Below, piece by piece: positions 7,738-7,745 of a stretch of DNA of 64,000 nucleotides. Each line of letters starts with the position of its first letter. Within the stretch, counting starts at the first letter, position 1. The stretch is taken from NCBI RefSeq assembly GCF_037042905.1, contig NC_087245.1, positions 36,766,001 to 36,830,000 of the forward strand, written 5' to 3'. Under the pieces are notes generated by a model. The model saw only the letters and a list, made by a program, of their open reading frames with translations, did no database searches and was not told where the DNA came from. This DNA comes from Lytechinus pictus (taxonomy: Eukaryota). The translations under genes were made by a program, and so were the position numbers.

Positions 7738-7745
7738 TCTCAATA

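What the first reader, a model, noticed from the sequence alone, without database searches (positions are those of the whole stretch)
7738..7745. A/B junction preserves unprocessed cDNA ends, like a 2-LTR-circle junction between two different elements
Seen: the 8-bp spacer is TCTCAATA. CAATA equals the five bases internal to element B's other LTR (19601-19605: the ATA spacer plus CA of the tRNA CCA in the PBS). The first T equals the PPT-side base next to element A's LTR (401). Known: unintegrated linear cDNAs carry these terminal extensions, which integrase removes but end-joining retains, as in 2-LTR circle junctions with primer remnants. Inference: host end joining ligated A's U3 end to B's U5 end before integration.
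Basis: partly seen in the sequence, partly recalled or inferred. Interest (0 to 1): 0.8.

Follow-up and report, generated by a model that had tools for sequence, protein, structure and literature searches.

The report
Two retrotransposons integrated as one dimer
Two different jumping genes, one complete and one that must borrow its enzymes, sit end to end inside a single insertion scar, and the eight bases between them keep the untrimmed end of one element's DNA copy, a rare chromosomal fossil of two freshly made copies being joined and inserted together.

Summary
7738-7745 is TCTCAATA; CAATA equals 19601-19605; T equals 401. Autonomous Gypsy element B (gag, pol, TatD ORF) and its non-autonomous relative A lie head to tail inside one 4-bp duplication, ACAT; neither has its own. 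15 of 18 other insertions have exact 4-bp duplications, and 0 of 7 other B-type host junctions carry CAATA. The junction is in contigs of 4 of 4 runs, one study. Best reading: one integrase event used A's U5 and B's U3 ends; the spare inner ends, B's unprocessed, were end-joined. Corrections: A's 'unprocessed end' rests on one base (chance 0.3); the spacer is also 7/8 identical to A's own first eight bases, hinting at templated fill-in; 'before integration' and 'host' cannot be read from sequence, since repair after strand transfer or a reverse-transcriptase jump give the same junction. No empty allele was found. It works like a 2-LTR-circle junction but is intermolecular and chromosomal. The scan noted a same-element dimer in another genome before (e1-7153424, unchecked). 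One-off event; new variant of a known kind.

The parts
20..23 (.). Left copy of the 4-bp target-site duplication ACAT, flush with A's U5 end
24..400 (-). Element A 3' LTR, 377 bp, ends 5'-TA...CA-3' in element sense
401..412 (-). Element A polypurine tract, nearly the same as B's
2199..4235 (-). Element A only long ORF (678 aa stop to stop), no Pfam hit; C-terminal part resembles the end of B Gag (E 1e-9); no pol anywhere in A
7348..7357 (-). Element A primer-binding site, 10 nt complementary to tRNA-Ser(TGA/CGA)+CCA
7358..7360 (-). Element A 3-nt spacer between LTR and PBS
7361..7737 (-). Element A 5' LTR, identical to 24-400; its U3 end faces the junction
7738..7745 (.). A/B junction spacer TCTCAATA (element sense TATTGAGA); no ACAT inside
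7738..7740 (-). Three bases (AGA in element sense): either 2 untemplated bases plus one PPT-side base, or a copy of A LTR positions 6-8
   Evidence: inference
7741..7745 (-). B's untrimmed U5 extension: 3-nt spacer TAT plus TG of the PBS (tRNA CA on the minus-strand cDNA)
7746..8124 (-). Element B 3' LTR, 379 bp, ends 5'-TA...TA-3' in element sense
8125..8136 (-). Element B polypurine tract
9246..10571 (-). Element B third ORF, TatD-related DNase (PF01026, E 4e-29)
10562..14920 (-). Element B pol: protease, RT, RNase H, integrase (Ty3/Gypsy order), C-terminal PHD finger
14866..17055 (-). Element B gag: N-terminal HhH-like stretch, PNMA-like capsid part, CCHC knuckle
19593..19602 (-). Element B primer-binding site, same 10 nt as A's
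19603..19605 (-). Element B 3-nt spacer between LTR and PBS (source of ATA at 7743-7745)
19606..19984 (-). Element B 5' LTR, identical to 7746-8124
19985..19988 (.). Right copy of the target-site duplication ACAT, flush with B's U3 end

Best explanation
A full-length cDNA of autonomous element B and a full-length cDNA of non-autonomous element A arose together, probably in one B-made particle (inferred). One integrase complex took A's U5 end and B's U3 end, trimmed them and inserted them in concert across a 4-bp staggered cut, giving one ACAT duplication round a 19,961-bp composite (shown by the sequence). The two spare inner ends, B's U5 end still carrying its 3-nt spacer and 2 nt of primer site, and A's U3 end with at most one extra base, were sealed by host end joining with a 2-3 nt fill-in, possibly copied from A's own terminus after TATTG paired with TATGG (inferred). 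Whether sealing came before or after strand transfer cannot be told; I put it at about even. The core (two cDNAs, one integration, B's end untrimmed) I hold at about 0.9; the host-enzyme version at the confidence given.
For: Single exact ACAT duplication outside, 3 of 4 mismatches if A or B is taken alone. 15 of 18 other A/B-type insertions have exact 4-bp duplications of many different sequences, none ACAT; chance of ACAT 0.006-0.009. 0 of 7 other B-type U5/host junctions carry CAATA while 7 of 7 PBS-side LTRs do; chance 0.002. Both LTR pairs have 0 differences in 756 bp, so both halves are equally young. A has no pol and shares PBS, PPT, LTR ends, leader and gag-end segments with B; 4 of 4 other A-family copies searched with B's proteins also lack pol (L070/L071, L072, L073 are 3 copies fetched whole, plus the window's A). 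Junction present in contigs of 4 of 4 runs. Primer-site and PPT remnants and untemplated bases are described at HIV 2-LTR junctions (PMC5618025, passages); short locally templated insertions mark polymerase theta joining (PMC7165422, passages).
Against: A's end is supported by one base only (chance 0.30). Because the spacer is 7/8 like A's first eight bases, only one base (the second T of TATTG) separates 'B extension' from 'duplication of A's tip', which weakens the 0.002 figure. The templated fill-in has a chance level near 0.1 for three bases and 0.35 for two. No empty allele was seen, so the duplication is read from the flanks only. It is one event: no second junction of this kind in the assembly. 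The 4 runs are one study and may be the sample assembled; one junction-bearing contig (X11) differs from the window LTR by one letter at a place not shown. Co-packaging is inferred, not observed.
Confidence: 0.65

Rival explanations
1. Reverse transcriptase itself joined the two cDNAs inside the particle: finishing B's plus strand it ran over the primer remnant, added or copied 2-3 bases and jumped onto the 3' end of A's minus strand (end-to-end clamping). The resulting 20-kb molecule had only two ends and was integrated normally.
For: Retroviral and LTR-retrotransposon RTs clamp ends with 2-4 base pairs after untemplated addition (10.1101/2021.05.13.443781, passages). Explains in one step why both inner ends escaped integrase and why the orientation is head to tail. 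Extra bases are purines on B's plus strand. TATTG/TATGG similarity offers a landing site.
Against: Evidence for clamping seen here is in vitro; no in-vivo dimer of this origin turned up. 2-LTR junctions in flies and plants are attributed to host joining.
Confidence: 0.2
2. Both inner ends were already trimmed by integrase; the 8 bases are a copy of A's first eight bases with one error, made during repair, and match B's spacer by luck.
For: 7 of 8 identity to A's LTR start against 5 of 8 to B's extension; B's LTR end is flush with the spacer.
Against: The single mismatch is exactly the base B's extension predicts; later mutation is unlikely (LTR divergence below 0.4%); extension plus templated AGA explains 8 of 8 bases without error.
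Confidence: 0.07
3. A and B inserted separately (same site or nearby) and the DNA between them was later deleted or recombined away.
For: Double insertion at one site is a common source of tandems in Drosophila (PMC5932611, passages).
Against: Double insertion keeps the target duplication in the junction; ACAT is absent there. Separate sites need ACAT and CAATA both by chance, about 1-2 in 100,000. Ectopic LTR recombination gives a shared LTR, not two different abutting LTRs.
Confidence: 0.04
4. Assembly artefact: two repeats mis-joined.
For: The junction is unique in the assembly and lies between repeats.
Against: Same junction letters in contigs of 4 of 4 sequencing runs; flank-to-LTR bridge in 2 of 4; exact outer duplication.
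Confidence: 0.01

Closest known systems
2-LTR circle junctions of retroviruses (HIV-1) and LTR retrotransposons (HMS-Beagle, mdg4, IAP, carrot Alex1/3, Brachypodium HOPPLA)
   Same: U5 end joined to U3 end, unprocessed terminal bases, primer-site remnant, small insertion (PMC5618025, PMC9324142, PMC10959353, 10.1101/2022.09.25.509424; passages seen).
   Different: Those join the two ends of one molecule into an unintegrated circle. Here two different elements are joined, the product is linear, chromosomal and bounded by one integrase-type duplication.
Tandem LTR retrotransposons in Drosophila (McGurk and Barbash 2018, PMC5932611)
   Same: Full elements head to tail; the paper notes rare junctions between LTRs themselves, mechanism left open (passages; its Table S2 was not read).
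   Different: Its three named routes give a shared LTR, a concatemer of one element, or a target duplication inside the junction; none fits two different LTR pairs with an untrimmed end and no inner duplication.
Recombinant LTR retrotransposons from co-packaged RNAs (ONSEN, PMC5668417)
   Same: Needs two different transcripts in one particle (passages).
   Different: Product there is one mosaic element with identical LTRs; here both parents were copied whole and kept their own LTR pairs.
Polymerase theta templated insertions (PMC7165422)
   Same: Short direct repeat of flanking sequence at a joint after weak microhomology (passages).
   Different: Only 2-3 bases here, below the 5-bp threshold that paper uses for calling them; chance about 0.1-0.35.
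Troyka LTR retrotransposons (PMC12440569)
   Same: Non-canonical LTR ends; many non-autonomous elements in sea urchins (parts 1-2 of 5 read).
   Different: Troyka has CG...CG ends, 3-bp duplications and a long-spaced zinc finger; A and B have TA...CA/TA ends, 4-bp duplications and CX2CX4HX4C.

Membership tests
2-LTR circle junction | U5 end abuts U3 end in head-to-tail order | tested here: met
2-LTR circle junction | Unprocessed U5 extension (LTR-to-PBS spacer, sometimes primer remnant) | tested here: met
   TAT+TG at junction; 0 of 7 normal B-type host junctions have it; one base separates it from a duplication of A's tip
2-LTR circle junction | Unprocessed U3 extension (PPT-side bases) | tested here: inconclusive
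   one base, chance 0.30; equally explained as a copy of A position 8
2-LTR circle junction | Both ends from one molecule; extrachromosomal circle | tested here: not met
   ends belong to two elements with different LTRs and the joint is chromosomal, inside host flanks. It works like one; it is not one.
2-LTR circle junction | Made by host NHEJ | not testable with these tools
   needs depletion of repair factors
Ty3/Gypsy (Metaviridae) LTR retrotransposon, element B | pol order protease-RT-RNase H-integrase, gag upstream | tested here: met
Ty3/Gypsy (Metaviridae) LTR retrotransposon, element B | Paired LTRs, tRNA PBS, PPT, 4-6 bp duplication | tested here: met
Ty3/Gypsy (Metaviridae) LTR retrotransposon, element B | Placement in an RT phylogeny | not tested
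   no tree built
Double-insertion tandem | Target duplication preserved in the junction | tested here: not met
   spacer holds no ACAT
LTR-recombination tandem | Shared single LTR between units | tested here: not met
   two complete, different LTRs abut
Troyka | CG...CG termini and 3-bp duplication | tested here: not met

The most novel reading that the evidence does not exclude
The junction is an in-vivo fossil of reverse transcriptase fusing two different co-packaged genomes end to end inside the particle, a route by which an autonomous LTR element and its parasite become one 20-kb integration substrate; if such dimers recur at a few per cent of insertions (1 of 19 examined here), intasome-inserted end-joined dimers are an overlooked, general source of composite and tandem LTR elements that annotation tools split into two.
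Probability: 0.2. Interest if true: 0.75.

Novelty: new variant of a known kind. Interest (0 to 1): 0.5.

Why it matters
It is physical evidence, in one place, that non-autonomous A travels with autonomous B, that this integrase accepts the U5 end of one element and the U3 end of another across 20 kb, and that it must trim a 3-nt (not the textbook 2-nt, recalled) U5 extension from ends finishing in TA rather than CA. It offers a fourth route to LTR tandems beside the three usually named, with a sharp signature (four LTRs, one duplication, PBS-side bases in the joint) that can be searched in any long-read assembly. As a single accident it has no shown function for host or element.

Tried and rejected
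Other junctions in the assembly: U3-end/U5-end pattern gave 2 hits (control 4): this one and L057, which has no LTR around it. U3/U3 pattern, B-type left half only: 0 hits. U5/U5 pattern: 6 places (12 rows, control 14); 4 of 6 checked by BLAST against both LTRs, none hit; the 2 unchecked repeat the unit of one checked. Empty site: left flank unique in the assembly; 10 near matches of its last 18 bases do not continue into the right flank; no loose end at the insertion point in 4 low-depth runs, which proves nothing; a paralogue of the flank seen in 2 runs stops short of the site. First tRNA pattern found no tRNA gene in 5 loci; the second did. Idea that the A copy on C4 keeps two PPT-side bases plus an exact duplication: rejected, none of 37 empty palindromes has the centre this needs. 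Idea that loose ends were splice joints within the window: motifs not found in window or loci. Idea that the junction is multi-copy (depth 12 in X11): not supported, the contig is mostly shared LTR sequence. Troyka and TRIM (Helenus/Ajax) membership: rejected. PMC5371799 gave nothing on Ty3 cDNA ends for the terms asked.

Full report
Observation. The window holds two LTR elements on the minus strand. Element A has LTRs at 24-400 and 7361-7737 (377 bp, identical); element B at 7746-8124 and 19606-19984 (379 bp, identical). Between A's 5' LTR and B's 3' LTR lie eight bases, TCTCAATA (7738-7745). CAATA equals 19601-19605, the five bases inside B's other LTR, and the first T equals base 401 beside A's other LTR.

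The elements. B is an autonomous Ty3/Gypsy-type element: gag (14866-17055; HhH-like start, PNMA-like part, CCHC knuckle), pol (10562-14920; protease, RT, RNase H, integrase, PHD finger) and a third ORF with a TatD DNase domain (9246-10571, E 4e-29). A has one long ORF of 678 codons with no Pfam hit whose C-terminal part resembles the end of B's Gag (E 1e-9), and no pol; three other A-family copies fetched whole also lack pol. A and B share a 10-nt primer-binding site, a near-identical PPT, LTR tips, a leader segment (76% over 134 bp) and a segment at the end of the gag-like ORF (86% over 56 bp), although the LTR bodies differ widely. Earlier scan notes call the genome a sea urchin (e1-7881919); I did not check this.

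Where the LTRs end. Searches of the genome gave 25 matches to B's LTR and 38 to A's. I printed the ends of 15 and 23 of these, leaving out the short partial matches, and could pair both flanks for 18 other insertions, 7 B-type and 11 A-type, two of which are copies of one duplicated locus; five printed A-type loci had no partner or were partial and were dropped. 15 of 18 have an exact 4-bp target duplication, 2 have one mismatch, 1 has a 5-bp duplication. The duplications are of many sequences; none is ACAT. B-type LTRs start at TATAG on the window strand: 0 of 7 host junctions carry CAATA, 7 of 7 PBS-side LTRs do.

One insertion, not two. The composite 24-19984 is flanked by ACAT on both sides, flush with A's U5 end and B's U3 end. 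Taken alone, A and B each have 3 of 4 mismatches between their flanks. ACAT by chance is 0.006 (composition) to 0.009 (profile of the other duplications), CAATA 0.002; two independent insertions followed by a deletion need both, about 1-2 in 100,000. Double insertion at one site would keep ACAT in the joint and LTR recombination would give a shared LTR (PMC5932611, passages); neither is seen. Both LTR pairs have 0 differences in 756 bp (upper 95% bound 0.4%), so the halves are equally young; other B copies have 0-2 differences.

Real DNA. Laying four public runs (contigs, one study, possibly the assembled sample) on the left flank and A's LTR showed the loose end CTCAATATATAGTAAAC... after the LTR end plus T in 4 of 4 runs, and a contig bridging flank and LTR in 2 of 4. 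One junction-bearing contig differs from the window LTR by one letter at a place not shown; other A copies differ near there, so a mixed contig is likely but unproven. No empty allele appeared, and none could be found among paralogues.

Reading the eight bases. In element sense the joint is B LTR end | TATTG AGA | TATGGAGA (A LTR start). TAT is B's LTR-to-PBS spacer, which a linear cDNA must carry because minus-strand synthesis starts at the tRNA end (established mechanism; HIV case in PMC5618025, passages, which also lists PBS remnants, PPT remnants and untemplated dinucleotides at 2-LTR junctions). TG is two bases of primer site. The last A may be the PPT-side base, but one base has a chance of 0.30. 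This cuts two ways. It offers a source for the filler: TATTG pairing on TATGG, copying of the next bases, release and re-pairing at the tip, as in polymerase theta templated insertions (PMC7165422, passages); this accounts for 8 of 8 bases, but chance is about 0.1 for three bases and 0.35 for two. And it weakens the B-side evidence, as only one base separates B's extension from a plain duplication of A's tip; that base is the one B predicts, and later mutation is unlikely, so I keep the duplication reading at 0.07.

Mechanism. Shown: one 4-bp staggered insertion using A's U5 and B's U3 ends; an inner joint holding B's PBS-side bases. Inferred: both cDNAs came from one particle or at least one nucleus at one time (co-packaging of different transcripts is inferred for ONSEN, PMC5668417, passages); the inner ends were sealed by end joining. 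Sequence cannot tell whether sealing preceded strand transfer or repaired the break left by an intasome holding one end of each molecule, nor whether the host or RT did it; RT end-to-end clamping with 2-4 base pairs is described for retroviral and LTR-retrotransposon enzymes (10.1101/2021.05.13.443781, passages). I give host joining 0.65 (order about even), RT jump 0.2.

Frequency. Exact-pattern searches for further head-to-tail, tail-to-tail and head-to-head joints of these families found only this one; the tail-to-tail pattern covered only B-type left halves, and exact patterns miss diverged or trimmed joints. It is 1 of 19 insertions whose flanks I examined.

Comparison and novelty. It works like a 2-LTR-circle junction (PMC5618025, PMC9324142, PMC10959353, 10.1101/2022.09.25.509424; passages) but fails the defining features of one molecule and a free circle. 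Rare LTR-to-LTR tandem junctions are reported in Drosophila without a mechanism (PMC5932611; its Table S2, which may list mixed pairs, was not read). Searches listed no report of two different LTR retrotransposons integrated under one duplication with an untrimmed joint; I saw most hits as listings only, and the library lacks most subscription and older papers, where tandem proviruses may be described. The scan noted a same-element four-LTR dimer in another genome (e1-7153424), unchecked and not used as support. It is not Troyka (PMC12440569, parts 1-2 of 5) nor a TRIM (PMC10886601, part 1 of 6).

Verdict. New variant of a known kind; interest 0.5.

Noticed in passing
window 9246-10571 (-): Element B carries a TatD-related DNase ORF after pol, 100% identical over 434 aa in the copy on C2. 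A search for TatD + retrotransposon + Gypsy listed one unrelated paper; the scan has noted this clade before (e1-7881919).
   Followed up: partly
window 14866-17055 and 10562-10720 (-): B Gag starts with an HhH-like stretch (HHH_3, just under the Pfam cut-off) and the integrase ends in a PHD finger.
   Followed up: no
window 24-400, 7746-8124: Non-canonical LTR ends: TA...TA for B and TA...CA for A in element sense, so three of the four end types finish in TA-3', not CA-3'.
   Followed up: partly
window 7329-7357; L081-L096: LTR-to-PBS spacer is 3 nt in 12 of 16 copies and 1 nt in 4 of 16. A has a second 13-nt block matching the tRNA-Ser T arm beyond the 10-nt PBS, a possible bipartite primer contact.
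   Followed up: partly
window 2199-4235 (-): A's ORF is kept open at 84-91% identity in three other copies: Arg/Ser-rich, with a coiled-coil-like end related to B Gag but no capsid or knuckle hit; a selected protein of a non-autonomous element.
   Followed up: partly
L035/L036 (G000:C4:12363315-12370957): A copy with identical LTRs whose right duplication has T in place of A at the base touching the U3 end; the empty palindrome family predicts A there. Could be a second case of one retained PPT-side base, or a mutation.
   Followed up: partly
L098-L102 and 32 more places: A short palindromic repeat family (about 30 bp core, 37 exact-arm copies) with two centre lengths.
   Followed up: no
L031/L037 (G000:C28): A copy whose two LTRs differ by a 29-bp gap but only one substitution, with an exact duplication; may be a recombinant of two A variants.
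   Followed up: no
L029/L030 (G000:C14:15099083 and 15121909): Same solo LTR with the same flanks twice, 22.8 kb apart: a segmental duplication or assembly repeat.
   Followed up: no
window 20005-20182 and 21258-21435: 178-bp inverted repeats (93%) 1,075 bp apart just right of the composite, MITE-like.
   Followed up: no
window 31479-32416 and 37493-38616; 54220-55429; 51199-51976: A 6-kb-spaced duplicated segment (97-99%), a G-run-rich array of about 45-bp units and an array of about 162-bp units.
   Followed up: no
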